Virus record (IMG/VR): IMGVR_UViG_3300036774_000066
Coordinates: 1-64,000 of that record
DNA: 64,000 nucleotides
Source: a virus
Strand: one strand, 5' to 3'
Within the stretch, counting starts at the first letter, position 1, and every line of letters starts with the position of its first letter. Positions 42,562 to 56,941 of this stretch are shown here, one piece after another. Both the position numbers and the translations under genes were made by a program. The notes beneath the pieces are model-generated. The model saw only the letters and a list, made by a program, of their open reading frames with translations, was not told the origin of the DNA and made no database searches.

Positions 42562-42672
42562 CATGACTTTTACCCATACAGGGACGGAAACCTTCACCCC
42601 AAAACCAATGCACCTATCAGCCTATCCAGCAGTGGTACACATTCATCACTTTTGCCCCGGAGGGACGGAAAC
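42562..42672 (+). CRISPR. two degenerate type III-like CRISPR repeats (mini-array or solitary repeat units)
   Basis: catgacttttacccatacagggacggaaac (42562-42591) and catcacttttgccccggagggacggaaac (42644-42672); CCC..GGG stem plus ACGGAAAC end; 81-nt period. Confidence 0.45.
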
Positions 42673-42779
42673 TTTTCCTTTGCATCAGAGATTAACTAAT
42701 CGGAATTTAATGGGTGCCCACTCAACCGACTGAAAAATCTCATATTTACAACAAGATAATCCCGTTTGTAGACCACCCA

Positions 42780-43504: not shown

Positions 43505-44137
43505 CTATACTACTCCTACCAGACCATCCGATTCAGGTTGCTCCTCTTTTACATCAGGGAAATCTTCGGTTTCCTTGTTGTTTGCCTGAAATAACTCCCT
43601 AAATTGCTTCATGCAAGTGTCAACCTTGTCGCTTATCTTCTTCAAATCCTCCACCGACTTATGAAATTTCTTAGACGCACCTAAATACGTCCGCTCTGTA
43701 AAGTCTCCCTCCTTCAAATACAAGTACACCATAGAAAATTTCTTCAGCTTCAGCAAGTATCTTATGTCCGGCACCTTCACCGCTGCCCCATTAAACATTG
43801 ACAGGAATAGAATTGTCTCCCTGCCAAACAAGCTGTACAGCCTAACATAAAAATCATTCTTAGAAAATCCTGCCAGCACCGAAACCAGTACAACTAATCC
43901 ATTGTTTGTCAAGTCAGTAGAAAAATTAAACAGCAGCTTGTTCTTTACAGATACAGAATCCTCCCTCACTATGTCCTCATTCGGGTCTTCCTCCATCCCT
44001 ACATCAGAATCCTTCACCTCTGCAAGCAACTGTTCTAATAAGTGCTGACTTGATGGAGAACCAATCGAATCCCGTCTTTCTCTGGTGTCGCTCATGTTGA
44101 TTATTCCCCTTAGATTCTTTTGGAAAAAACGCCTCAA
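43505..44137 (-). CDS. Mor-family transcription activator-like protein
   Basis: LFGRETILFLSMFNGAAVKVP followed by an HTH-like ASKKFHKSVEDLKKI. Confidence 0.5.
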   Translation of the reverse strand: MRRFFQKNLRGIINMSDTRERRDSIGSPSSQHLLEQLLAEVKDSDVGMEEDPNEDIVREDSVSVKNKLLFNFSTDLTNNGLVVLVSVLAGFSKNDFYVRLYSLFGRETILFLSMFNGAAVKVPDIRYLLKLKKFSMVYLYLKEGDFTERTYLGASKKFHKSVEDLKKISDKVDTCMKQFRELFQANNKETEDFPDVKEEQPESDGLVGVV

Positions 44138-44618
44138 CTTTACAAGTGCATATCCCTAACTCACCCAACCTCTCCGATACTTCTCCATAACAAATAGACA
44201 AATCTTCCATGATGTCAATGTCCTCTCCCTCATCATTCTCCCGCCTCACAAAATCAAAATCCTCCGGGTCCGTCAACCTCTCTCGCCTCAACTTCCTCAG
44301 ATAATTCCCTATCTCATTTCTCGCCGTAGAGTAAACTATCACAACCAAATCACACTTGGGGTTTATCCACCTCTCCTTCAACTTTGCGAAGGCTTTACAA
44401 TAGCCAAGTGAAAATAACTCCGATACATCAAGGTTAGGATGTCTCGGAAGAAAATGTCTCTTGATAACCACATTCACCACGTCCGAAATCGTCGCCTCAA
44501 GTAAATGCTTATCGAATTTCTCTCCCCTGACAAAGGAAGACAGATTAGTAGCAGAGATTCTTTTGGTCCAATGGGATTTTTTGCATTGACAAAATGAACC
44601 GACCATACCTATATCCAT
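44004..44618 (-). CDS. sigma70 region-2-like factor
   Basis: DVSELFSLGYCKAF...YSTARNEIGNYLRK. Confidence 0.55.
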   Translation of the reverse strand: MDIGMVGSFCQCKKSHWTKRISATNLSSFVRGEKFDKHLLEATISDVVNVVIKRHFLPRHPNLDVSELFSLGYCKAFAKLKERWINPKCDLVVIVYSTARNEIGNYLRKLRRERLTDPEDFDFVRRENDEGEDIDIMEDLSICYGEVSERLGELGICTCKVEAFFPKESKGNNQHERHQRKTGFDWFSIKSALIRTVACRGEGF

Positions 44619-45791
44619 AGATATTTACTCCTAACTCAGATGTGTCAACAAAAATTAAACCAGCAAAGTGTAGGGAATCGAGCAGATGCCTCCGCTCAGT
44701 TCCCGCTTAAAGCATCCTGTAAAGACAGGACTCGGTGAGGCAAAGCAACAGCAGGATTAACAAATCGTAGCCACTGATTTTTACATCAGACTTAATCGTT
44801 TTCTAATCACGTCAACCGTCATAGTTACACCAGAGAATGATCCACTTTTCAATTATTCGCAAAAGTTAAGCTGGAAGTAGGGTTTCAAGTGTAGGAAATG
44901 CTGCAACTCCCTTTTTTCTTTCTTTCCTGTAGAAATCTGTCTAAAAGTAAACTAAAAGCTAATAGAACCATCCATTACATCCGTCGTGTATGTAAAATAA
45001 GTAAATCAAACCAAACAGGCTATTCGATCCTCTCCAAACCGTATTAGAGCAAGCTATTGTTTCCTGATTCTTTGCTAATTTCATATTTATTCTGGCTATC
45101 ACTCCTGCCATGCTTAACAGGGTATAAATACAATTCTTAATACTTAAAGATACATTAAGAATAGACTATACTAAGGCTCTTTTTTATTTCCGAAGAGGTG
45201 TCTATTTATTATGTCTGTCAATTTTTCTTTTTTCATTTTTCTTCCAGTTTGCCTCATTCGAGCAGTGCGTTTGGGGTCGGACTGTTTCGGAATTGTTGTG
45301 ATAATTCTATGTGTAAACGAATTTGCAACAGGAGAATCTATTGTTGTGGGAATGCTATCGGGGGATTTTGCGACGGGAAGTGTAGAAAATTCATAAGACG
45401 CCCTGTATACCCTTATGCGACGCTGCTCCCAATCCGCAACCAGACGTGTTAGCGCATCTATACCCTTTGTCCATTCCTTCTTCAAATCCAATAATGGAGG
45501 TTTAATTGCCGTTTGCATAGAATTTACATGAGGATAGTAACGAGGATAATGATACACAATCAAATTCCCGTCTTGCAGGGTATGAACTATTACCTCTTTA
45601 AGAACCCTCCCCGCCTTCACCCCGCCATCCCACACACTCAATTCCACAGAATTTTCTTCCCATTCTGTGAATTTACGATAAGACAATCCAGTAGAATTTG
45701 AGTCAGAGTCATCTATCACTTGTAAAATATACATTGTTTTTTGTCCTAAATGTCAATAGATTACTTCCACCGCAACCATCAGGCTACTTTT

Positions 45792-47120
45792 TCAAATCCT
45801 GAGTTTCTGCGTGCAAAGATCTTTTTGAGCATTCTTACGCATTGACGATAGGGCTTTCATGAGCGCAGTATTAAAGTCACGCAACACCTTGGCCTTTCCA
45901 TCACTGCCGTCCTCAAACGCCTCCACCGCCTCATCCCTCAACAGGCTTATCACCGCATCAATCCCCCGGTAATACCCCTCTCGCCACTCTTCCATACTAT
46001 CTTTTTCGGGGATTTTTGTTTGCGCGTTTTTTGTAGGCTGTGCTTTGTTGCGCGTCTTAACCCAATACCTCTCCAGCGAAAGAAGCATATCTTGTAAATC
46101 AATTCGCGTATGTATAGTATTTATAGCAGGCATTACTTCGTGACTCTTAATCAACTTGACAATCTCCTTGCCCAACAGCTTAATAATAACCTCCCGCAAA
46201 TCCATCGTCACCACACTCCCATCACCAGATAAAAAGTCATCCAAGAACTTGAAACAAGTATCATACTCCCCCTCATAATCAGCTATCATCTTAGGAGTAG
46301 GAAAATCAACTACACCAGTATAAGGCACCCCAAACATCTTCCGCTCATTCTCGGACCTCTTGAACTTCTTCTCAGCTTCCACACTCTCCCTTACTTCCTT
46401 CGCCACACGCTTAGAAAAAGGAACACTGCATATCGCACACCTTGTCAAAGTACAACCCTCACACGGATTCTCCTTATCGTCAACAGCCTTCTCAGCAACC
46501 TTCCCCTCCACCTCCTCCTTCTTAATCCCCGCCATCCCACCCTCCCCTAACTTCGAGGATAACTTAGAAACATCAAGAGGCTTCTCATACTTCCCCTCTT
46601 GTATCTTCTCTTCTTGCTCCCCCGTCTCCTGTATCTGTGGCTGCTCCTTCTGCCCCTGTCCTTGCGGCTGCTCTGGCATATCCGTCTCCTGAATCTTCAT
46701 CCTCTTTTCAGAGGGATGCCAATAATCATACCCCTTACTGCACCCCTCTGGATGCTCACAATCACAAGACATACAAGCCTTAATCTGCTTATCAAGTGTT
46801 GCCTGTGGTAAACAATGAAACTTCCGGACTACCACACCATTACGCAAAATTTCCGAAGCAGGTATAGGCTTTAATGTCTTCGCGTCAAGCATTAGGTTAT
46901 TCTCCATTAAAAACTTTCCAATAGAACAATACAACTCAATCAACTGCTCCTTCGACATCCTATTAGGTCCGTCCGAAAGATACACCACCACGTCCCGACT
47001 CTTCTCTCCCTCATGTAAACCACACCAAGTAATATTCATAGATTTACCTTTCTGCAATTTACCGTTCGGACCATTGCCCCACCCATAATCGTGATACCCG
47101 TCCGGGCCATCAGTTATCAT
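45792..47120 (-). CDS. hypothetical multidomain protein
   Basis: 442-aa ORF with Cys clusters. Confidence 0.55.
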   Translation of the reverse strand: MITDGPDGYHDYGWGNGPNGKLQKGKSMNITWCGLHEGEKSRDVVVYLSDGPNRMSKEQLIELYCSIGKFLMENNLMLDAKTLKPIPASEILRNGVVVRKFHCLPQATLDKQIKACMSCDCEHPEGCSKGYDYWHPSEKRMKIQETDMPEQPQGQGQKEQPQIQETGEQEEKIQEGKYEKPLDVSKLSSKLGEGGMAGIKKEEVEGKVAEKAVDDKENPCEGCTLTRCAICSVPFSKRVAKEVRESVEAEKKFKRSENERKMFGVPYTGVVDFPTPKMIADYEGEYDTCFKFLDDFLSGDGSVVTMDLREVIIKLLGKEIVKLIKSHEVMPAINTIHTRIDLQDMLLSLERYWVKTRNKAQPTKNAQTKIPEKDSMEEWREGYYRGIDAVISLLRDEAVEAFEDGSDGKAKVLRDFNTALMKALSSMRKNAQKDLCTQKLRI

Positions 47121-47826
47121 CGCCTACTCCATTAAAACATCATACATATCTACCCAATACCTCCTACCAGTCAAACTCAATACACAAACCTTCTCATAAA
47201 ATTCGTCCTGTTCATCCACCGTACCCTTCATAACATGCCCGTTTTTCTTATATGTAATCTCAGAACCAACAGGATAAACTTCATTAAACGTCTTTACAAT
47301 GTCCCTCTGAGTCTGAGCCTTTAACGCCATCAATTCACCAATACGAGCAATCGCATACGCCCTATTGTCAATAGAAGAAGTTTCCATTTTACCACTCCTC
47401 CACAACTATGTCAAGCCCTGCTTTTCCATCAACTTCTCAACTTGACTTCCACAAATCTGACAGATATTCTTCTCCCTTGCACACTTCTGACAAGATTGCT
47501 TTAGTTGCGTTCTGTAAAAAGAATATCGACCATGCTTCTCACACATGCCATCACCCATGCAGTCATGAAATAGACGCTTCTTTATCTTTTCACACTCTTT
47601 ACAAAGGTACATAGTACATCTCACTCAATAGGGAAATCCCGGCACACTCGTATCCAACTCACTCTCCAAAATCAACTCCTTTATCACTGCACGTCGCAAT
47701 TCCGGTATCCGCTCATTTACCTTCTTGATAATCTTCTGAGAACACTCCACACAAAACCTAACCGCACAGGCTTTCTTGCATATCTCACACTTGTTTTTCA
47801 TGCTGCATTACCTGTAAAAACTTTAC

Positions 47827-47869
47827 AAAAAGAAAAAGGCACGTACCTATCTCTAAATACGTGCCCTTT
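47827..47869 (-). terminator. intrinsic terminator closing the RAMP-array-SPFH operon
   Basis: GGCACGTA...TACGTGCC stem, then TTTTTCTTTTT on the minus strand. Confidence 0.75.
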
Positions 47870-47885
47870 CCCCAAAACCACAAGA

Positions 47886-48701
47886 CTACTTTCCTATTAC
47901 CACTCCACCGGGCTGTCCATCAATAATGGTAAAGGAAACACCAGTATTCTTTGCAGCAATGTCCTTGTACGTATCATACTTCTTGAAAAGCATGTACTCA
48001 GGGTTACGCCGCAATGCCTTTCCAAGTGAGTCAATCGTGGCTACTTGCGCCAATGATGCCTGCTTCGCATTCTCCGCTGCCCAAACAGTTTCATCCTGCT
48101 TGATATTGGAGAACTTCGCATTCTGCATAAGCAACGGCACCCCGGACGCTTTGAACGATTCAATTGCCATTGCAGACCCTTTTGTGCTCGCCCCGTCCAT
48201 GTCTACAACAACAGAATTGTAATCAGGATACTTACTAAGAACAGACCGAACACCTGACCGAATATCCATCTTGGCAAACTGAGTGTAGATAGCGTCAATC
48301 GTTATCACCGACACACGATCCATACTGGTAGACTTTGGAGTCATCTGTGCAAAAACCGCATTGCGTGTGTCAAGGTCAGCAGCTACCGCGCACCTAACAT
48401 AAAAATCAACAGTACACGGTGTCTTATTGATTATCACCCGGTCATCCTCCCCGTTCCCTCCATCCTTCCCAAAATGTTCCTTGATAGCAACTGACGTAGC
48501 CTCAAGTATAACAAGTACGTTCTTTGTTCCGTTAGGATTACCTGTCCCAATGTCAACCATGCCCGCCTCACGAACTCCCTTTTCCCACCCTGTCGGAGTA
48601 AGAATCTTTCCGACATATCCAGCAGGAATTTGCCGATACTCTTCACATCCGAGAAACACAAACGCCATCAGGCAAACCAAACCAACCAATCCGTACCTCA
48701 T
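47886..48701 (-). CDS. SPFH/band-7 family lipoprotein
   Basis: Lipobox FLGC, IPAGYVG, C-terminal ALRRNPEY..K. Confidence 0.75.
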   Translation of the reverse strand: MRYGLVGLVCLMAFVFLGCEEYRQIPAGYVGKILTPTGWEKGVREAGMVDIGTGNPNGTKNVLVILEATSVAIKEHFGKDGGNGEDDRVIINKTPCTVDFYVRCAVAADLDTRNAVFAQMTPKSTSMDRVSVITIDAIYTQFAKMDIRSGVRSVLSKYPDYNSVVVDMDGASTKGSAMAIESFKASGVPLLMQNAKFSNIKQDETVWAAENAKQASLAQVATIDSLGKALRRNPEYMLFKKYDTYKDIAAKNTGVSFTIIDGQPGGVVIGK

Positions 48702-49051
48702 TTCGCCTCCCCTTTGTTAGAGTTAGTAGAATTAAGAATACGTTGCTCATACGCCTTTTGCTGATCCAATACCTGACTCCGATCAATCACACCACGCGGA
48801 GTAGCATTGACGGACAGGGAAGACAGCAGGAACAAGGCGTAACCCACCCATGCAAGCCCGGCAATTGTCCACGCTACCCTCTTGACAAGTGCCTTGACCT
48901 TCATTTCATGCAATTCGTCATTGTCACCTTCGCCAAACAAGAACAACCGCCAGGAAAACCTACACACAACGGTCACAGCAACAAACAAGACAATCAACGC
49001 TATGACTAATCGCAATAGTGATGGACCATAGATTCTTAGCAGGTCAACCAT
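48698..49051 (-). CDS. two-TM membrane protein
   Basis: Two hydrophobic helices; AAGGAGG RBS upstream. Confidence 0.65.
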   Translation of the reverse strand: MVDLLRIYGPSLLRLVIALIVLFVAVTVVCRFSWRLFLFGEGDNDELHEMKVKALVKRVAWTIAGLAWVGYALFLLSSLSVNATPRGVIDRSQVLDQQKAYEQRILNSTNSNKGEAK

Positions 49052-49071
49052 TAAGAAACCTCCTTTGAAAA

Positions 49072-49867
49072 ATGCGAAACAAAGCTACACTATACTTCAC
49101 CAAAACACCACGGCACAGGCTCCAACACCACCGCAACACCACCCAACGGTACGTTACTCTACCGTCACTCGACATAACGATTCCCAACTCAACCTCACCG
49201 CCGCAAGACAGAACCAAACTTCACCGAAACACTGCGGCACGGAACCAAACCCTACCACAACCGCGCCCTACTGAACATGACGCTACCGTCAAGGAACTTG
49301 ACCGCACAATACGTCACCACAACCAGACGTTAGCATACCGGACAAAACCCAACCCTACCATCACATCATGGCACGACACGATACCTCCACAGAACATAAC
49401 TTCACCACTACGCCACGAGACAATACTCTACCGTCACCCATCGGCACGATACTATACCAAAACGTGACTGCACCTTACCAAGACAAGACGTAACGGCACT
49501 ACACCTTACCACGACAGGACGTGATAGAACGTCACGTCACCTCACCAAGACACTATCTCACCTGACCGAACCAAGACGTTAGGATACCTCACTGCGCAAT
49601 ACTTAACCGTCCCCCAACATAACGATTCCAAACCCGACCTCACCGGAACACTACGCGACTGCACCCAACTCCACCACGACAATACCTCACCCTACCCCAC
49701 GTAACGATACCGTGACCAAACATCTCCCGACATTACAACACCAGAACATCACACTACGTCAAGGCACTCCACTTTACCACCACCAGAAAACACATAATGA
49801 AACGTAACCTCACCGAAACCGAAACCGGACCGCACTGTACCTAACCAATACAAACATTACCATTACG
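49072..49867 (-). ncRNA. pentamer-periodic array (NGT-NN)n in YGGT-delimited blocks; putative guide-RNA array of the adjacent RAMP protein (VIPR-like)
   Basis: Hand parse of 49072-49847: 150 pentamers NNACN on + (129 with AC at positions 3-4) in 26 blocks, each ending ACC plus one extra base. Confidence 0.8.
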
Positions 49868-49871
49868 TTAT

Positions 49872-50546
49872 CTACTCAACCTTTGTCAAGGTATAGTCAA
49901 ACTTCCCATAGATACCAGAATTATGCCACTGACCAAAACCCTTGACATCGCGTGAATAGTCAAAAAGAAGACGCAGAATTTCCTCCGTTGCACAAAACTT
50001 CGGAATCTCATAGCAAGTAACCTGACACTCAAAAAAAGCACCCGCTTCAATCATCTCACTCCGAGCCAAGGAAACTCGTGGACCTTGCTTAGTCATAGCA
50101 CGAAGAGGACGCTCCAAAAATCCGATAGGTTTATCTGTAATCAAACGGATTCTGTGAGGATTGACAGCAACAGACTTGTCAATATTGGAGCGAAAGTTAG
50201 AAAGAGTCTCGTCAACCTCTTCTTCCTTCTTCATTTTCTTCTTGCCCGTAACAAAACCATTTAATGCCTCCGCTGACGCTTTCAAAACCCCCTTGACAAC
50301 ATAGCTGTAAAGAATGGGCATACCGTCAGTATCTCGATGAAAAACCGTTGTACCTTTCTCAACCTCTTCAGGGAGAGTACCCGTTTCTTCGATAATCGCA
50401 CTCGCCAAGGCAGGATTTTTCTCGATTGCCTTCTTCGTCAAGAACTCACTCGCCGGAGTATCCTTACCAGGAAGACTCCCCAAGATCGGCTCTACAAACA
50501 TCACTTTCAAATTGTACACACTACGGGCAAGAACAAGACCAGACAT
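49872..50546 (-). CDS. solitary Cas7/Csm3-like RAMP protein (Vipr-like)
   Basis: RAMP hallmarks: LKVMFVEPILGS strand, DGMPILYSYVVKGVLK (cf. PxIPGSSLKGxLR), SEMIEAGAFFECQV, C-terminal Gly loop GFGQWHNSGIYGKF. Confidence 0.8.
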   Translation of the reverse strand: MSGLVLARSVYNLKVMFVEPILGSLPGKDTPASEFLTKKAIEKNPALASAIIEETGTLPEEVEKGTTVFHRDTDGMPILYSYVVKGVLKASAEALNGFVTGKKKMKKEEEVDETLSNFRSNIDKSVAVNPHRIRLITDKPIGFLERPLRAMTKQGPRVSLARSEMIEAGAFFECQVTCYEIPKFCATEEILRLLFDYSRDVKGFGQWHNSGIYGKFDYTLTKVE

Positions 50547-52146
50547 AACACACCCCTTTTGTTAGTAGTTAAAGCATCCTGTCAATCATCATCACAGTTC
50601 TTATCAGGATCAAGAATAGGTTCTACATCCCCCTCAAGGAAAATCTTTGTCTTCCCATTCTCAGCGTAAGGAGAGAAATTCATTAACTCGTCAAGGTCTT
50701 CCCTCGTTATATGTCTCTTTACGTAGAGCAACGAAACCAGCTTGGCACAAACCTTTCTTAATTCATTCAATTCCGATCTTAAAGACTCTATCTCTCCACT
50801 ACCAAAATCCATCCCCCTCATCACTCTATCAATATGCTCTTCAATAGGAGCAATATCAGTGACGTTAGTAAAGTACCCACGGGAAGTCTTAACAAGAACT
50901 TTGCGCCCGTTACATTCCATAAGCTACCTCTTTTTGAGGATTCAGTAAACCACGCTTCTTGACTTCATCACATACCGCCCGAAAATACTTCTTCTCCTCC
51001 CCTTTCAATCCCTCTTCATTCCGTCCAATCCGTATCCAAATAATCATCTCATTAAGCAATACGTCATTACTCATCTCTTCTACAGGAATTGGAAGAATAT
51101 TCACCCCAACACCTTCACTCATTCAGGCACCTCAGCCGTATCTGTCAACTGAGCACATACTATCTTAAAGCATTCATCACAAACTATGTCACACTGCGAC
51201 ACAGGAACACCAGGAAATAAGGCTTCCTTCTCCTCCAATGCCACTTCTTCGGAAACCTCTTTTTCAAAGATACCTCCACACATCGCACACTGAAATTCAT
51301 TGTCCTTCAAGTCCGGCATACTCTTTCCCTCTTTACATTTTAGGACGCAAGAAATAAATCATGCCAACATCAGCAGCAAAGACATTTACTTGTCGTTTAA
51401 TAGCAGAATCACCAAAGAAATCAATCAAGTCACAACGCAAAGGAAACCCGTTGAACGATACCATAACCGACTTAGTATCCTTTACAAACTGCTCACACTC
51501 CTGCAAGTCACCGTCTATCCTATCCTCTGAAATACCTCTACCAAACAATGACCGAAAAGAAGGTATGTCACCCTCTTTCTTATTAACTGCAAGAGCATCT
51601 ATCCAATATTTTGTGCCTAATCTTTTATCTACTAATTGCTGAATATCTGGCATACTCTTTACTCCATGTAAACAAACATCTTCTCCCGATTCATTGACTT
51701 CCACGTATATGTAAGAACTTTCAATTCCGGGCAATCCCTCACAATCTTTTCCAATTCATCAGGCTTCACCGCTGGCACCACGTTCTCCGATACCATCAAC
51801 GCTATCTGAAATACCAAATCCGTAAACTTCAAACCACCAGAAAAATCCTCCACGATCCTCATGATCGCAGTTTTTATCTGGGCTATCCTATCCTGATCCC
51901 TGTCATCATGTAATACGTCGGACATACCAAAACTCCTTAGACTGTTGCTATGTGATCGCTGGTAAGCACTGTAACACCGTCCTTTAGCACCTGAGTACGC
52001 TTTGCCACCTCTGCCTCTTCTAACCACCTCTCAACCTCATCTAACTCCCTACGGGCCTCCTCTGCATCAAGCCCACCCGCGTTAGTCATGTACAAAACCC
52101 TCTCCACAACCAACTTTGCTTTTTCAAACATAGCAGTAAATCCCTT

Positions 52147-55100
52147 CTACACGATCCAGAGTCTCCCGAAATGCTCCTCTTTGCCTTCCTTGTCATCATA
52201 TTTAATCCCGTCGAACCACCGCAAACCGTAGTAATCCGTGCCTTCCCCGTCATCTTTACTTAGCATAATACTAAATGGCAATTGTGTAAACTTATCAGGT
52301 GGACCGTCAAGATTGATTAAGTCCCAAGGAATCTCTACGGAATAGGTAGTAACATAACTGTCCTTTTCACGGGTTATCAACCCTGTAAACTTGGACCCCT
52401 TTGAACTATACTCCCCAACAGGGTAATCCTTCTCGTTTGCCGTCTTGCAAAGACCCATAATCATCTGTCCATCATCAGAACGTAAGGCCATACCAATCAC
52501 CGCCGCCTTCCCACCAGGACTCATTACACCAATCTTCAATCCATCCTCACAATGTATCCGGTCCATTGTCCTCTGAAAAGCCCGGTGTATAGGGTGAACT
52601 GCAATCACCTTTACAATTAAGAATTTGTCATTGTACCACGCCCTCCATGCTGCTCTCAAAGTATGCTGAATATCCTCTGCCTTCTTCTTCAAAGTCTCAG
52701 GAAATACAGCGTAAGGAAATTCACCCATACTATACAAAGGAGAAGGCTCCCTCGAAGCACAAGCAAAACTCGCCATGAGGCTTCTCTTGATCGAAATATT
52801 ATCATCCGGTGAAGAAACATCAACAGAAATTTCACCTACTGTAAAATTGACAACACCAAAAGGTATGCTGACAATGTGAGTCTCGTGTCCACCAAAAAAT
52901 TCTTGTCTGTTAATAAGAAACCCATTCCCAGACAACGCTATGTTAATAGTCCTTGTATGATTCGCGTTACTGGCAATAGTAACAACTACCTCTTTCCCAT
53001 TTTGTATAGAAAGTTCTATCTTTCTTACCTCTAACAATTCTCCTACGTGAACAGGTACACACATCCATCCTATTCCGTTATGTAAAACAACAGAGTAATC
53101 TCCAGCAACCGTTCCTTCACGGGTAACAACTTCTATCCAACTATCCTTCAAAGTAACTTCGAGTTCTCTTCTTAATACCGACCAACCCTTCCCTATAACG
53201 GTAGAAAATTTTTGTCCTGCTGCCTGTGGTGGAATAGCTATCGAAGGCTGTACCTCTCCATCACAAAATCTCTTGTCTACCTCTTCCTCCCAAGTCAACT
53301 TACTGTTCCATCCAAAAATCCTTGTTGCAATACCGTGTGAATCTTTCCAAATCTGAATACCAGAAAAAGGACTCAGCCATACAGTACGAGATAAACTCCA
53401 ACCTTTCAAAGGGAAATTCACCAATCCAATCAATTCCTGCACGTCAACCAACTCAAAGGGTGTATGCCACTGGTAAAAATCCACATCTTCCAAAGCAATT
53501 CTCTCGCTCAATTCCCTCGGAGTACCTAAGTCAAAAATGGCAGAAACTACCATGCAAGAATTTAAGTCATTCCCACTCTTTGACCAATCAAGCAACTCTA
53601 CATCTCTGTCTCCACTGCCAGACAATCCTAACTTCCTTCCCGTAATAGAGTTTTCCCAAAGTAAACCAACATCAGACGAGTTCTCTAAATAAATCAACAC
53701 TGCCTTTCCATGATTCCAAAAAACATTATTATCACTCCAATTATCCTCACAGCGGGGCATTTCTGGCATTCGAGAAATCCCACCCTTACTGTTATTCACG
53801 AAGAAATTGTTGTAGATTTTATTGCCAGAAGTAGTAGTGTGGACACCAAGATACTTATACCTATGAAGTAAAGCACGTATCTTTACCCCGTACTGTGTTC
53901 CCTTTACAAAATTGCGAAAGAAGTGAGCATTGTTTCCATCATGTGTGTAAAATCCACACTCAGCAGCATCGCTTCCCTCTCTGGTATCAATGATTGTATT
54001 ACTGTCAATCATGACAGGACCATCAGACATTTCATGGAAAATGCCGTATGGCTTGCTGTCAACTATTAAGTTCTGTGTGATCCTGTCTCTTGCACAATCC
54101 CCATCCAGCCATATACCATAACAACACCGCTCAATCTTGTTTTTCTTTATCAAGCTATCATCAACAGCATGAAACTTAATACCACACTCCTCACACGTAC
54201 CTACCACCCCAGGCTTTATACAATTGTCAACAATTTCATTATACTCAATACCTAAGTCATGCGAATAAAATGCCACAATGCCCGAGATTCCATTATCATG
54301 AATCTTGTTTCCTCTCACCGTATGAAATCCCCCCACGGAATGTTCTTTTATCCACTTCACAAAGGCATATATGTAAGGCTCCCCGTACTCTCCCAAATCA
54401 AGCATAGATATATCTTTATTTACAATGGGAATATTCATCGCACTCTTCGCAAATCCACCCATTCCCAAATTAAGTCCTTGTGCATTACCGTAAGATATTT
54501 CACAGTTTTCAATGGTAAAGTTAGCTCCTGCGTTCACATCAACTACGGACAACTGATTGACAGAATGCCACGTCGGTCCTGCCCAAATCGGGGCACAGCC
54601 GCCAACAAACCTAATTCCAGAAACCTTGATATTTTCCAAGCCCCTGACAATAGGCACAAAACACTGCTGCCTTACTGACCTTTCAACTTTACACCTACCC
54701 GGATGATCTGGTAAACAAACATAAATGCGAGAATTATCTTCATCCACCCACATTGAGTACAGACACAACTTCTCCTTCTCTTTTACTTCTGTCAACAAAA
54801 CACTGTTGACAAAAATCTGCTCACATCCCACATTCGGAGTAATACGTACATAGTAGATATTACTTTCATCACGAAACCACTCAGAACTCCATTCGTCCAT
54901 TGCGCACACTACCGGGGGAACTTCATCTTGTGCTGCCTCAATAGAAATTTCAGAACAATATGGCTTTATACACTCTCTGTAAACCCCTTCATGAATTATT
55001 ATCCTATCGCCAGGAAGAGCACTCTCCACAGCACACCGAACAGTCTTTACAGGTGACTGAAAAGAGCCGATGTTCTTATCGCTCCCTCGCATACTTGACA

Positions 55101-55266
55101 CATGAAAAGCAATAGAAGTATGCTTTTGTTTTGTTGCAGAGGCCCAAGCAGCATAGCCTCTAATCAATTCATCGTCAGAAGATTCAATCACAGAAGATAA
55201 ACTAAAGGAAGGATGGGCCTTCCCCTGTCCTATCAATGTCAACATTCTAAGATCGGGTGTTATCAT
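52147..55266 (-). CDS. right-handed beta-helix glycan hydrolase/lyase with a C-terminal CBM9-like domain
   Basis: GSDKNIGS..SPVKT..A...ALPGDRIIIHEGVYRE (DUF1565/GH120-like), PbH1 repeats (GIWLD, GIFHE), C-terminal WYNDKFL..YSVEIPW..FSIMLSKDD. Confidence 0.7.
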   Translation of the reverse strand: MITPDLRMLTLIGQGKAHPSFSLSSVIESSDDELIRGYAAWASATKQKHTSIAFHVSSMRGSDKNIGSFQSPVKTVRCAVESALPGDRIIIHEGVYRECIKPYCSEISIEAAQDEVPPVVCAMDEWSSEWFRDESNIYYVRITPNVGCEQIFVNSVLLTEVKEKEKLCLYSMWVDEDNSRIYVCLPDHPGRCKVERSVRQQCFVPIVRGLENIKVSGIRFVGGCAPIWAGPTWHSVNQLSVVDVNAGANFTIENCEISYGNAQGLNLGMGGFAKSAMNIPIVNKDISMLDLGEYGEPYIYAFVKWIKEHSVGGFHTVRGNKIHDNGISGIVAFYSHDLGIEYNEIVDNCIKPGVVGTCEECGIKFHAVDDSLIKKNKIERCCYGIWLDGDCARDRITQNLIVDSKPYGIFHEMSDGPVMIDSNTIIDTREGSDAAECGFYTHDGNNAHFFRNFVKGTQYGVKIRALLHRYKYLGVHTTTSGNKIYNNFFVNNSKGGISRMPEMPRCEDNWSDNNVFWNHGKAVLIYLENSSDVGLLWENSITGRKLGLSGSGDRDVELLDWSKSGNDLNSCMVVSAIFDLGTPRELSERIALEDVDFYQWHTPFELVDVQELIGLVNFPLKGWSLSRTVWLSPFSGIQIWKDSHGIATRIFGWNSKLTWEEEVDKRFCDGEVQPSIAIPPQAAGQKFSTVIGKGWSVLRRELEVTLKDSWIEVVTREGTVAGDYSVVLHNGIGWMCVPVHVGELLEVRKIELSIQNGKEVVVTIASNANHTRTINIALSGNGFLINRQEFFGGHETHIVSIPFGVVNFTVGEISVDVSSPDDNISIKRSLMASFACASREPSPLYSMGEFPYAVFPETLKKKAEDIQHTLRAAWRAWYNDKFLIVKVIAVHPIHRAFQRTMDRIHCEDGLKIGVMSPGGKAAVIGMALRSDDGQMIMGLCKTANEKDYPVGEYSSKGSKFTGLITREKDSYVTTYSVEIPWDLINLDGPPDKFTQLPFSIMLSKDDGEGTDYYGLRWFDGIKYDDKEGKEEHFGRLWIV

Positions 55267-55838
55267 ACTGCCAATGGGTCATCCTCTCCTATTTCGGTAG
55301 ACATTTCAGGAACTATGTGAACATAGTCTGAAAATATTTCATCAATAATATTCTTTGTACTCTTCATGTCTTTCCAAACCTGCAACTCAGTCACTCGATT
55401 ATTACACTCTTTCGCGTCGTCGGGGTACTTATTATCCTTTGGCAATACTCCACACCCCAAAGAATCTAAGACTTTCCTCATAATACTCGCCGCATTATCC
55501 TCTGGTCCTATATTGACAACATGCTCATCTGGATTCAAAACAAACTCAGGAAACACTCTCTTTGCAAAGACAGGAGTTCCGTTACACAACTTTCTAAGAT
55601 AATAGTAATCCTTCATCATCCTGAAAAAATCAGCTTCCCGAACAGCAACGGGCTTCATGGAAAAGTCAAGTTCACTCACCATGTTCTGTATCAATGCCAA
55701 GTAAAGAAGATCACCAATTTCCGGCTTACCATAAAGTGTCTTTACAAGAAGCATCTTTTCATCAGCAACAACAGACACGTACTTCATGTCATACGAGAAA
55801 AATCTCTTCTTAAACAAAGCAACATCATTCATAGTCAC
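55263..55838 (-). CDS. hypothetical protein in the clamp-loader operon
   Basis: Overlaps the dnaX stop codon. Confidence 0.5.
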   Translation of the reverse strand: MTMNDVALFKKRFFSYDMKYVSVVADEKMLLVKTLYGKPEIGDLLYLALIQNMVSELDFSMKPVAVREADFFRMMKDYYYLRKLCNGTPVFAKRVFPEFVLNPDEHVVNIGPEDNAASIMRKVLDSLGCGVLPKDNKYPDDAKECNNRVTELQVWKDMKSTKNIIDEIFSDYVHIVPEMSTEIGEDDPLAV

Positions 55839-56941
55839 CTTGCCATTCTATTTCTATCAACCAAAGAAGCAGTGTTTTGTGATGATCCACTCAAAACCGC
55901 TGCCCCACTTCGGAACTGATTGTAAATCAACCACAGCAAGGCTTGAACTGTCGTATCGTTCTTGAAAGAATTTACCGCCCAATCCTGCATCAGCATCATA
56001 AACAGCTTGAAAGAATCCTGACCCCACAACTCAATTGTTTTCTTGTAAAGATCCACAAAGTAACTTGAACTTGTCTTATTGGAAGAAATACTATAAATCA
56101 GATTATTCACAACAAGGTACATATCATTGCGAATTGACTCTATGACACACGAAGCCAAAGCAAATACTCTCTCTGTAACAGTCTTTTCATCCGCTGACTT
56201 CACCGCAATCAAATATTCAAGAACTTTACTTTCAGCAGACCTAATTGAGGCTACAAACTTCGACTTATCCTCCATCATCGCATAAAGGTCAAGCATCATC
56301 ACGGAATCCCGTACATGACCCTTTGACGTAATCGCTATGTAATACAAAATCTCCTCTGGTATCTCTAAATTCTCTGACTTTGCAATTCTCCTTAGATTCT
56401 CTATTATCTCCTCAATTGACAAAGTACGAAACACCAACTCAATTGACCGAGAACGAATTGTACTCTCTATACTCTCCACACTGGTAGAACAAAAAACAAT
56501 AAACATATTCTCAGGTATTGCTTCCAATGTTGTCAATAACTGCCCTTGGGCTTGCTTGGAAATCAAGTGACACTCATCAAAAACAACTACACGCCAATCA
56601 CAGACTGTAGAGGCTGTAAAGAAAATACCCTTCATTTCCTTGATAGCATCCACATTGCCAACATCACCCGAATCAAACTCCTGATAAAAAGGCACAAAGG
56701 ATAAGTCTGACTTGCATACGTCACAAACACCACAAGGCTTTTTCTCAATATGAGACTTACAATTCAACCCTCGCGCCAACAAACGAGCACTGGTAGTCTT
56801 ACCTGTGCCCCAATCACCACACATAATTATTGACCGGGGAGAATTAGTAGGATTCTTAATAATCGACTTCAATACTTCGGCGGGAGCCTCTTGACCGTAA
56901 AGCTGTTCAAACGTGCGAGAACGATACTCTTGTGTAAACAC
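55835..56941 (-). CDS. dnaX: DNA polymerase III gamma/tau-like clamp loader subunit
   Basis: YRSRTFEQLYGQ, GDWGTGKTT, PCGVCDVC, FDECH, TIRSRS, GHVRD. Confidence 0.9.
   Translation of the reverse strand: MFTQEYRSRTFEQLYGQEAPAEVLKSIIKNPTNSPRSIIMCGDWGTGKTTSARLLARGLNCKSHIEKKPCGVCDVCKSDLSFVPFYQEFDSGDVGNVDAIKEMKGIFFTASTVCDWRVVVFDECHLISKQAQGQLLTTLEAIPENMFIVFCSTSVESIESTIRSRSIELVFRTLSIEEIIENLRRIAKSENLEIPEEILYYIAITSKGHVRDSVMMLDLYAMMEDKSKFVASIRSAESKVLEYLIAVKSADEKTVTERVFALASCVIESIRNDMYLVVNNLIYSISSNKTSSSYFVDLYKKTIELWGQDSFKLFMMLMQDWAVNSFKNDTTVQALLWLIYNQFRSGAAVLSGSSQNTASLVDRNRMAR

What the first reader, a model, noticed from the sequence alone, without database searches (positions are those of the whole stretch)
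49072..49847. Second-level grammar of the array: 26 blocks, each delimited by one extra base next to ACC (YGGT on the RNA)
Seen: the pentamer phase shifts by exactly +1 nt at 26 points. Every shift follows a pentamer ending ACC, and 25 of the 26 extra bases are purines on + (U/C on the RNA). Block lengths are 5n+1: 21, 26, 31, 36 or 41 nt, plus one 6-nt block. Example on +: 49227 aaaca ctgcg gcacg gaacc aaacc ctacc a | caacc gcgcc ctact gaaca tgacg ctacc g. Inference: YGGT marks processing or filament-nucleation sites, so each block is a separate guide of 4-8 subunits. A slipped microsatellite would not keep three variable positions per unit together with strict punctuation.
Basis: partly seen in the sequence, partly recalled or inferred. 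Interest (0 to 1): 0.85.

Follow-up and report, generated by a model that had tools for sequence, protein, structure and literature searches.

The report
Staggered VIPR guide-RNA array, phage
The five-base repeat with one extra base every 21-41 bases is real: it is the guide-RNA array of a phage VIPR system (a CRISPR-related, RNA-guided DNA silencer first described in 2026), and the extra bases divide it into 26 short guide modules, a layout the VIPR authors already call a "staggered array".

Summary
Window 49072-49847 (RNA on the minus strand) is exactly 150 pentamers N-G-U-N-N plus 26 single extra bases. A parser that charged shifts of +1, +2, +3 and +4 equally chose only +1 inside the array.

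Every block starts with GGU (one GGG). The base before it is U or C in 24-25 of 26 cases. Blocks hold 4-8 units, plus one of 1 unit.

The gene just upstream (49872-50546, minus strand) is a Cas7-like RAMP. It is a remote homolog of the SUSP1 Vipr protein, so this is a stand-alone VIPR locus with YNNNG-type repeats.

In 71 arrays next to homologs, 1034 of 1192 phase shifts are +1. Blocks peak at 5-6 units. Related arrays differ by indels of 31, 26 and 5 nt.

Across the family the conserved punctuation is the GG doublet. The pyrimidine before it is specific to each array.

The 2026 VIPR preprint describes "staggered vrRNA arrays" (fig. S18) but did not confirm them experimentally. This scan has already found the same grammar on other DNA. 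This is therefore a new member of a known kind.

Two points remain untested: whether the blocks are cut apart, and which target code they use. RNA data were unavailable and all target searches stayed at chance level.

The parts
49872..50546 (-). vipr gene: 224-aa stand-alone Cas7-like RAMP (Vipr homolog)
   Evidence: There is no Pfam or PHROG hit. It has 220+ homologs of about 200 aa. The AF2 model has pLDDT 85.6 with a long beta-hairpin at residues 141-166. The top Foldseek PDB hits are Cas7 of type VII and Csm3 of type III-A, with prob 1.0, E 1e-8 and TM about 0.5. hhalign of this family against the SUSP1 Vipr family gives prob 89.7%, E 1.9e-6 over 188 columns. The family G-loop consensus G-Q-W-R (G-Q-W-H in the window's own protein) aligns to SUSP1 G-D177-W178-R179.
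49848..49871 (-). short leader between the vipr stop codon and the first regular module; irregular pentamers
   Evidence: The parse shows gaps of 4 and 1 nt among isolated units here.
49072..49847 (-). vrRNA array: 26 head-to-tail modules, each one extra base plus n pentamers N-G-U-N-N (n = 4-8, once 1); equivalently G-(U-NNN-G)n
   Evidence: Supported. GU is 93% fixed and positions 1, 4 and 5 are variable. The minus strand has no ORF of 60 aa or more. There is no Rfam family hit. The RNA fold is not significant (z -1.6).
49320..49360 (-). example of an 8-unit module (41 nt including the extra U at 49360), used for target searches
   Evidence: Parsed; searched.
49920..49948 (-). promoter-like site inside the 3' end of vipr, upstream of the array (consensus match only)
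   Evidence: 9 of 12 matches with an extended -10 TG. The number of such sites in the region is no higher than in shuffles.
48698..49051 (-). next gene downstream: 117-aa predicted two-pass membrane protein whose RBS (49060-49066) directly follows the array; probably not part of the system
   Evidence: Translation. No family hits. No homolog beside other vipr genes.

Best explanation
The tract is the guide-RNA (vrRNA) array of a stand-alone phage VIPR system. It is transcribed on the minus strand downstream of its Cas7-like vipr gene.

The array is a head-to-tail chain of 26 self-contained modules. In the protein-centred framing of the VIPR papers (one protomer per YNNNG unit) each module is G-(Y-NNN-G)n. 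Every junction is then a GG doublet, and the extra nucleotide is one of those two G's.

I propose that each module is coated by its own short Vipr filament of 4-8 protomers, about one helical turn. The G and Y would be buried and the variable bases displayed for gapped pairing with target DNA. The one-base stagger breaks the 5-nt register, so a filament cannot run on into the next module. One 776-nt transcript would thus carry about 25 independent guides without repeats, tails or ribozymes.

Why 5n+1 (inference): in the solved SUSP1 filament each GGY motif is held jointly by two neighbouring protomers. A closed filament of n units would therefore need one more G than it has units.

What is shown: the grammar, its conservation, the modular evolution of blocks, and the homology of the protein.

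What is inferred: filament formation on each block, the independence of blocks as guides, and DNA silencing. Whether blocks are cleaved apart or stay as beads on one RNA is open.

My odds: VIPR array about 0.9; blocks are separate guides about 0.65; the closing-G rationale about 0.4.
For: Grammar in the window:
- Only +1 shifts occur, 26 of them, and every block starts GG. Lags 26, 31 and 36 have z 8-10.

Protein:
- It has a Cas7/Csm3-like fold and full-length profile homology to the SUSP1 Vipr family, with the G-loop tryptophan conserved and the following arginine conserved in the family consensus (His in the window's own protein).

Association with the gene:
- About 75 of 80 viral loci with a homolog carry a 5-nt-periodic tract beside the gene.

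Family-wide grammar:
- There are 1034 shifts of +1, against 42 of +2, 39 of +3 and 77 of +4.
- Block size peaks at 5-6 units.
- G at the first position of a block is 89%, against 28% in interior units.
- R follows at position 4.

Modularity:
- Related arrays differ by indels of 31, 26 and 5 nt, with flanking blocks unchanged.
- Exact block duplicates occur within arrays.

Variable positions:
- Among 112 near-identical block pairs, substitutions fall on positions 1/4/5 (94/94/96), rarely on G (8), and position 1 of the first unit is protected (3).

Control:
- SUSP1 type II vrRNAs parse as 11-16 uninterrupted units with no +1 shift.

Literature:
- The filament has 6 subunits per turn, or 5 when target-bound, and each GGY is shared by two protomers.
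Against: - No RNA data are available, so transcript ends, processing and Vipr binding are untested.
- Blocks of 4-8 units are shorter than the characterised vrRNAs (9-16 repeats) and lack the 3' tail or pseudoknot near which filament subunits were resolved in every SUSP1 assembly intermediate.
- Under the published two-base code a 5-unit block would specify only 10 nt.
- No target was found under any rule, so neither guide function nor block independence is demonstrated.
- A closing G was not enriched at array 3' ends, so the closing-G rationale has no independent support.
- The staggered layout was not experimentally confirmed by the VIPR authors either.
Confidence: 0.6

Rival explanations
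1. The extra base is the pyrimidine, and Y-GGU is a sequence signal read by a nuclease or by a nucleating protomer. RNAs are cut there into 21-41-nt guides.
For: In this array the base before GG is U or C in 24-25 of 26 cases, against about 55% pyrimidine at the equivalent interior position. L024, another GU-type array, has 78% Y. The last unit of a block is biased to U-G-U-Y-N.
Against: Across the family the base before GG is not conserved (A .32, C .26, G .15, T .26). It differs by array: A 16/18 in L038 and C 15/22 in L008. A common Y-specific signal is therefore unlikely. It could still be a lineage-specific preference. No cleavage data exist.
Confidence: 0.2
2. The blocks are not independent. 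One long filament, or a few, covers several blocks, and the extra base is a bulge or hinge about once per helical turn that relieves strain. Adjacent blocks would then read adjacent target segments.
For: Block size (mode 5-6 units) equals the published 5-6 subunits per helical turn. Single blocks are short for specific recognition.
Against: Block sizes vary from 4 to 8 within one array, so the bulge is not at a fixed helical phase. Indels the size of whole blocks occur between relatives without disturbing neighbouring blocks. The protected G and the R at each block start look like a start signal rather than a hinge. Multi-block targets were not searched for.
Confidence: 0.12
3. The tract is not a guide array. 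It is a degenerate microsatellite, a compositional artefact, or the coding sequence of the plus-strand ORF 49072-49467.
For: A 131-aa ORF is open on the plus strand. The tract is G-poor on that strand.
Against: A 5-nt period with +1 shifts is incompatible with a reading frame. The ORF has no Pfam match. Three of five positions are hypervariable while G and Y are fixed. The same grammar accompanies homologs of the neighbouring gene in dozens of unrelated phage contigs.
Confidence: 0.02

Closest known systems
VIPR systems with 'staggered vrRNA arrays' and alternative YNNNG repeats (bioRxiv 10.64898/2026.04.26.720920, text and legend of fig. S18; methods on type classification)
   Same: A lone small RAMP (Vipr) encoded in a phage sits beside a long non-coding tract of pentanucleotide units with fixed G/Y and hypervariable positions. 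Consecutive guides abut with a 1-nt stagger and have no tail or ribozyme between them (compared).
   Different: I could read only the legend, not the figure or tables. I therefore cannot tell whether this clade, the 5n+1 rule, the GG-doublet junction, the 4-8-unit size or block-wise indels are reported there. The authors state that staggered arrays were not among the architectures confirmed by sRNA-seq. No accessory vap gene is conserved beside this clade's vipr.
Type II VIPR of Escherichia phage SUSP1 (vipr YP_009199429.1, vap1, four vrRNAs; structures in bioRxiv 10.64898/2026.04.26.720927)
   Same: The protein is homologous over its full length at profile level, with the G-loop W-R conserved in the family consensus (W-H in the window's own protein). 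Both use 5-nt units with buried G and Y, and one protomer per unit is expected.
   Different: SUSP1 vrRNAs are about 100 nt: 9-16 uninterrupted GGY-NN units followed by a conserved 3' pseudoknot tail, and each has its own flanks. Here there is no tail. Blocks have 4-8 units. The first G is free except at block starts, and SUSP1 D177, which reads G1, is Q here. Three positions per unit vary rather than two, so the published NNx code may not apply unchanged.
Class 1 CRISPR crRNA with a Cas7 backbone (type III Csm3, type VII Cas7)
   Same: The protein fold is the same: RRM core, G-loop and thumb hairpin. Both show periodic interruption of the guide by the thumb.
   Different: The period is 5 nt rather than 6. 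There are no repeat-spacer units and no adjacent cas genes. The fixed bases lie inside every unit. Guides are delimited by register, not by a repeat hairpin and Cas6.

Membership tests
VIPR system | Vipr protein: a minimal single-RRM RAMP with a glycine-rich loop and a thumb | tested here: met
   The AF2 model has pLDDT 85.6 with a beta-hairpin at 141-166. Foldseek top hits are Cas7/Csm3, prob 1.0. hhalign against the SUSP1 Vipr family gives prob 89.7%, E 1.9e-6 over 188 columns, with G-loop GxGQWR (family consensus; GQWH in the window's own protein) aligned to GxGDWR.
VIPR system | Adjacent non-coding tract of tandem pentanucleotides with fixed GGY (or related YNNNG) and hypervariable remaining positions | tested here: met
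   There are 150 units N-G-U-N-N with GU 93% fixed. The same holds beside about 75 of 80 homologs. Positions 1, 4 and 5 are hypervariable.
VIPR system | Non-CRISPR context: no repeat-spacer array or cas operon at the locus | tested here: met
   There are no Rfam hits in the 64-kb window. Neighbouring genes have no Pfam or PHROG cas families. The putative repeats at 42562-42720 noted by another reader were not examined.
VIPR system | Accessory vap gene next to vipr (typical, not universal) | tested here: not met
   No neighbour of the window's vipr has a homolog beside other vipr genes. No accessory gene is conserved across the family. The preprint allows stand-alone genes.
VIPR system | vrRNAs are expressed and co-purify with Vipr | not testable with these tools
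VIPR system | Variable bases match natural DNA targets under a gapped code (1-nt skip) | tested here: inconclusive
   Real guides scored the same as shuffled guides on local DNA. Exact scans gave 0 hits or chance-level hits.
Staggered vrRNA array (fig. S18 of the VIPR preprint) | Consecutive vrRNAs abut with a 1-nt stagger; the end of one marks the start of the next; no tails or ribozymes between them | tested here: met
   There are 26 shifts of +1 and none of any other size inside the array. Family-wide, 1034 of 1192 shifts are +1. No hammerhead or other Rfam family was found. There is no significant fold.
Type II VIPR (SUSP1-like) | vrRNA of 9-16 uninterrupted GGYNN units capped by a conserved 3' pseudoknot tail | tested here: not met
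   Blocks have 4-8 units with no tail. The SUSP1 control parses as 11-16 uninterrupted units plus tails.

The most novel reading that the evidence does not exclude
In this VIPR clade, guide boundaries would be encoded purely by register. A GG doublet ends one single-turn Vipr filament and starts the next, so one unprocessed 776-nt RNA carries about 25 independent mini-guides as beads on a string. Each protomer would read three bases (YNNNG) rather than the published two. That would be a distinct recognition code and a tail-free, nuclease-free way of multiplexing guides.
Probability: 0.2. Interest if true: 0.7.

Novelty: new member of a known kind. Interest (0 to 1): 0.4.

Why it matters
VIPR is a newly described RNA-guided DNA-silencing system, proposed by its discoverers as an ancestor of CRISPR effectors. 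Its staggered arrays are mentioned only in a supplementary figure and were not verified experimentally.

This locus and the 71 related arrays give a quantitative rule for that layout:
- modules of 5n+1 nt;
- a GG doublet at each junction;
- 4-8 units per module, about one filament turn;
- evolution by whole-block indels.

They also show that three positions per unit are hypervariable.

That makes two open questions directly testable. How does a tail-less Vipr filament know where to start and stop? Does this clade use the published two-base code or a three-base code? If blocks work as independent guides, 26 guides in 776 nt would be a very compact natural multiplexing format.

Tried and rejected

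Target searches (all negative or at chance):
- Local search of 841 guides from 72 arrays against 80 vipr loci plus the whole phage, under rules NN+0..3 and NNN+0..2. Real guides scored the same as shuffled guides.
- Window guides against the phage's own genome. There was no excess over shuffles.
- IMG/VR exact scans of decoded blocks 49359-49320, 49613-49574, 49778-49744 and 49711-49677, as contiguous triplets, triplets plus one skip, and with R/Y-degenerate third bases. All gave 0 hits.
- NNx pattern of block 49359-49320. It gave 14 hits, which is about the chance number, and other guides did not converge on those contigs.
- Metagenome scan. It found two homologous contigs matching 21 of 23 bases, the number expected by chance, with no gene start at the site.
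- These scans required exact matches, so they are weak evidence against any particular code.

Codon-likeness of the variable triplets:
- UAA, UAG and CUA are depleted but UGA is not.
- The triplets are contiguous in the DNA, so ordinary trinucleotide bias explains the pattern. I rejected this as evidence.

Other tests:
- Covariation of the G-loop residue with C versus U at the Y position: none was seen.
- Closing G at array 3' ends: not enriched.
- blastn of the locus against named phages: no match.
- tblastn of Vipr: only four uncultured gut phages.
- DNA for the closest relative P0002 (65% identity) was not available.
- Conserved accessory gene: none found.

Full report
THE OBSERVATION

The intergenic tract between two minus-strand genes is C/A-rich on the plus strand, so G/U-rich on the gene strand. 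Base identity at lag 5 is 0.47, against 0.30 in Markov simulations (z 9.4). It fades by lag 20-25 and reappears at lags 26, 31 and 36 (0.45-0.49, z 8-10). That is what a 5-nt repeat with a +1 shift every 5-7 units produces.

I parsed the minus strand with a Viterbi/EM chain of 5-nt units. Gaps of 1, 2, 3 or 4 nt between units cost the same. The learned unit is N-G-U-N-N, with G and U each 93% fixed. Between 49847 and 49072 every gap chosen is +1, and there are 26 of them.

Block sizes are 5,1,7,7,6,7,6,6,8,5,7,6,4,5,5,4,5,8,6,6,6,5,7,6,6,6 units.

Each block starts GG (26/26) and GGU in 25/26, followed by a purine in 23/26. The base before the block is U or C in 24 of 26 cases. It is 25 of 26 with an equally good alternative parse at 49609/49614.

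WHAT IT IS

A literature search found three 2026 preprints on Viral Interference Programmable Repeat systems. In these systems a small, stand-alone, Cas7-like RAMP (Vipr) polymerises on vrRNAs made of GGY-NN pentamers. It buries GGY and displays NN for gapped pairing with DNA, and it silences competing phages.

The same paper lists alternative repeats (NNNGG, YNNNG, NNNNG). [quoted passage not shown] The legend says that vrRNAs derive from 1-nt overlapping positions and that the end of one marks the start of the next. These arrays were not among the architectures confirmed by sRNA-seq.

The gene directly upstream of the array (49872-50546, minus strand, 224 aa) has no Pfam or PHROG match. The other evidence identifies it:
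- It has more than 220 homologs of about 200 aa.
- Its AlphaFold model (pLDDT 85.6) has an RRM-like core and a long beta-hairpin.
- Its best PDB matches are Cas7 of type VII and Csm3 of type III-A (prob 1.0, E 1e-8).
- A profile of its family aligns with a profile of the SUSP1 Vipr family over 188 columns (prob 89.7%, E 1.9e-6).
- The family G-loop consensus G-Q-W-R (G-Q-W-H in the window's own protein) sits on SUSP1 G-D177-W178-R179.

In the published structure D177 reads the first G of GGY, while W178 and R179 hold the second G and the pyrimidine. The D-to-Q change fits the free first position of the unit here, but this is an inference.

The window is the first 64 kb of a 156.6-kb IMG/VR virus record estimated 93% complete. 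This is the record's only such array.

IS THE GRAMMAR MORE THAN A LOCAL ACCIDENT?

I fetched 80 viral loci encoding homologs. About 75 of them have a 5-nt-periodic tract directly beside the gene. Parsing 71 distinct arrays on the gene strand with the same unbiased gap penalties gave the following:
- 1034 shifts of +1, against 42 (+2), 39 (+3) and 77 (+4).
- A block-size distribution peaking at 5 (325 blocks) and 6 (256 blocks) units.
- An interior unit N-G(95%)-Y(84%)-N-N.

At block starts the first position is G in 89% of cases, against 28% in interior units, and position 4 is a purine. The base before the block is not conserved overall (A .32, C .26, G .15, T .26). It is array-specific: A 16/18 in L038, C 15/22 in L008, Y 50/64 in L024.

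As a control, the three downstream SUSP1 vrRNAs parse as 11-16 uninterrupted units followed by tails, with no +1 shift.

ARE BLOCKS FUNCTIONAL MODULES?

Related arrays share many identical blocks in the same order but differ by presence or absence of whole blocks. A DNA alignment of four of them shows indels of 31, 26 and 5 nt, that is 5x6+1, 5x5+1 and one unit. Exact block duplicates occur within arrays.

Among 112 pairs of near-identical blocks, differences fall on unit positions 1, 4 and 5 (94, 94, 96). They are rarer at Y (55) and almost absent at G (8). In the first unit of a block, position 1 changed only 3 times.

This corresponds to the preprint's YNNNG class. The leading G of each block is under constraint.

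HOW IT LIKELY WORKS

The VIPR papers frame one protomer per Y-NN-GG unit, because one GGY is held jointly by two neighbouring protomers. Re-framing this array the same way gives modules G-(Y-NNN-G)n. The junction is then a GG doublet.

It also suggests why the increment is always +1. A self-contained run of n units needs one more G than it has units. That step is inference, and a test for a closing G at array 3' ends was not positive.

The published filament has six subunits per turn, or five when target-bound, so a block of 4-8 units is roughly one turn. I therefore favour about 25 separate short Vipr filaments, each on its own module. I cannot say whether the RNA is cut at the junctions.

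There is no significant secondary structure (z -1.6), no ribozyme or other Rfam family and no tail. A promoter-like site lies in the 3' end of vipr. The next gene's RBS follows the array immediately.

WHAT COULD NOT BE SHOWN

RNA-seq evidence was unavailable. I tried to find targets under the published NNx rule and under three-base rules. The three-base rules were suggested by the hypervariability of position 1 and by earlier notes of this scan.
- Local searches showed no excess over shuffled guides.
- Exact scans of IMG/VR and JGI metagenomes with the decoded 7- and 8-unit blocks gave nothing, or chance-level hits with no supporting context.
- Apparent codon-like depletion of UAA/UAG in the variable triplets is not matched by UGA. 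Ordinary trinucleotide bias explains it.

The target code and the biological targets of this phage's guides therefore remain unknown.

COMPARISON AND VERDICT

This is a VIPR locus of the staggered-array, YNNNG-repeat kind. It is not type II, because it has no tail and its blocks are short. No accessory gene is conserved in its clade.

The kind is already in the literature, at the level of a supplementary figure and without experimental confirmation. Follow-up agents of this scan have reported the same 5n+1 grammar on other genomes.

The finding is therefore real and correctly parsed. Its interpretation is largely in line with what the discoverers proposed, apart from the role given to the pyrimidine. 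I file it as a new member of a known kind. The quantitative rules derived here are useful handles for experiments on an uncharacterised VIPR architecture: +1 only, the GG junction, 4-8 units per block, whole-block indels, and three variable positions.

Noticed in passing
window 49615-49644 and 49165-49199: Two modules share the 13-nt stretch GGAAUCGUUAUGU, including the same non-canonical GA unit. This looks like block duplication followed by divergence, or two guides against variants of one site.
   Followed up: partly
window 49320-49359 and 49744-49778: With the fixed GU removed, two of the longest modules read like a Shine-Dalgarno box, a 6-nt spacer and a start codon (AGGUGG-N6-AUG and AAAGGAG-N6-GUG). 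The block-start motif (R-N-G) biases decoded guides towards SD-like beginnings, so this may be chance.
   Followed up: partly
71 related arrays (L001-L080): After UA at variable positions 4-5, the next variable base is a pyrimidine in 63% of units against 44% overall (p 1e-4). UGA is not depleted. This is probably general trinucleotide bias rather than codon reading.
   Followed up: partly
L024:3020-3960 and L024:4560-6300: One relative carries two GU-type staggered arrays flanking its vipr gene, with about 485 units and 98 +1 junctions (about 100 modules). It is the largest array set seen here.
   Followed up: no
L001-L080 and window 44000-56000: No accessory (vap-like) gene is conserved next to vipr in this clade. 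The window's downstream neighbour is a small two-pass membrane protein found in no other locus.
   Followed up: yes
window 52147-55266 (-): A 1039-aa protein with right-handed beta-helix / NosD-like repeats lies a few genes upstream of vipr on the same strand. It is probably a tail spike or depolymerase.
   Followed up: no
window 42562-42720: Another first-reader note reports two type III-like CRISPR repeat units here. They were not examined, and Rfam gave no hit anywhere in the window at gathering thresholds.
   Followed up: no
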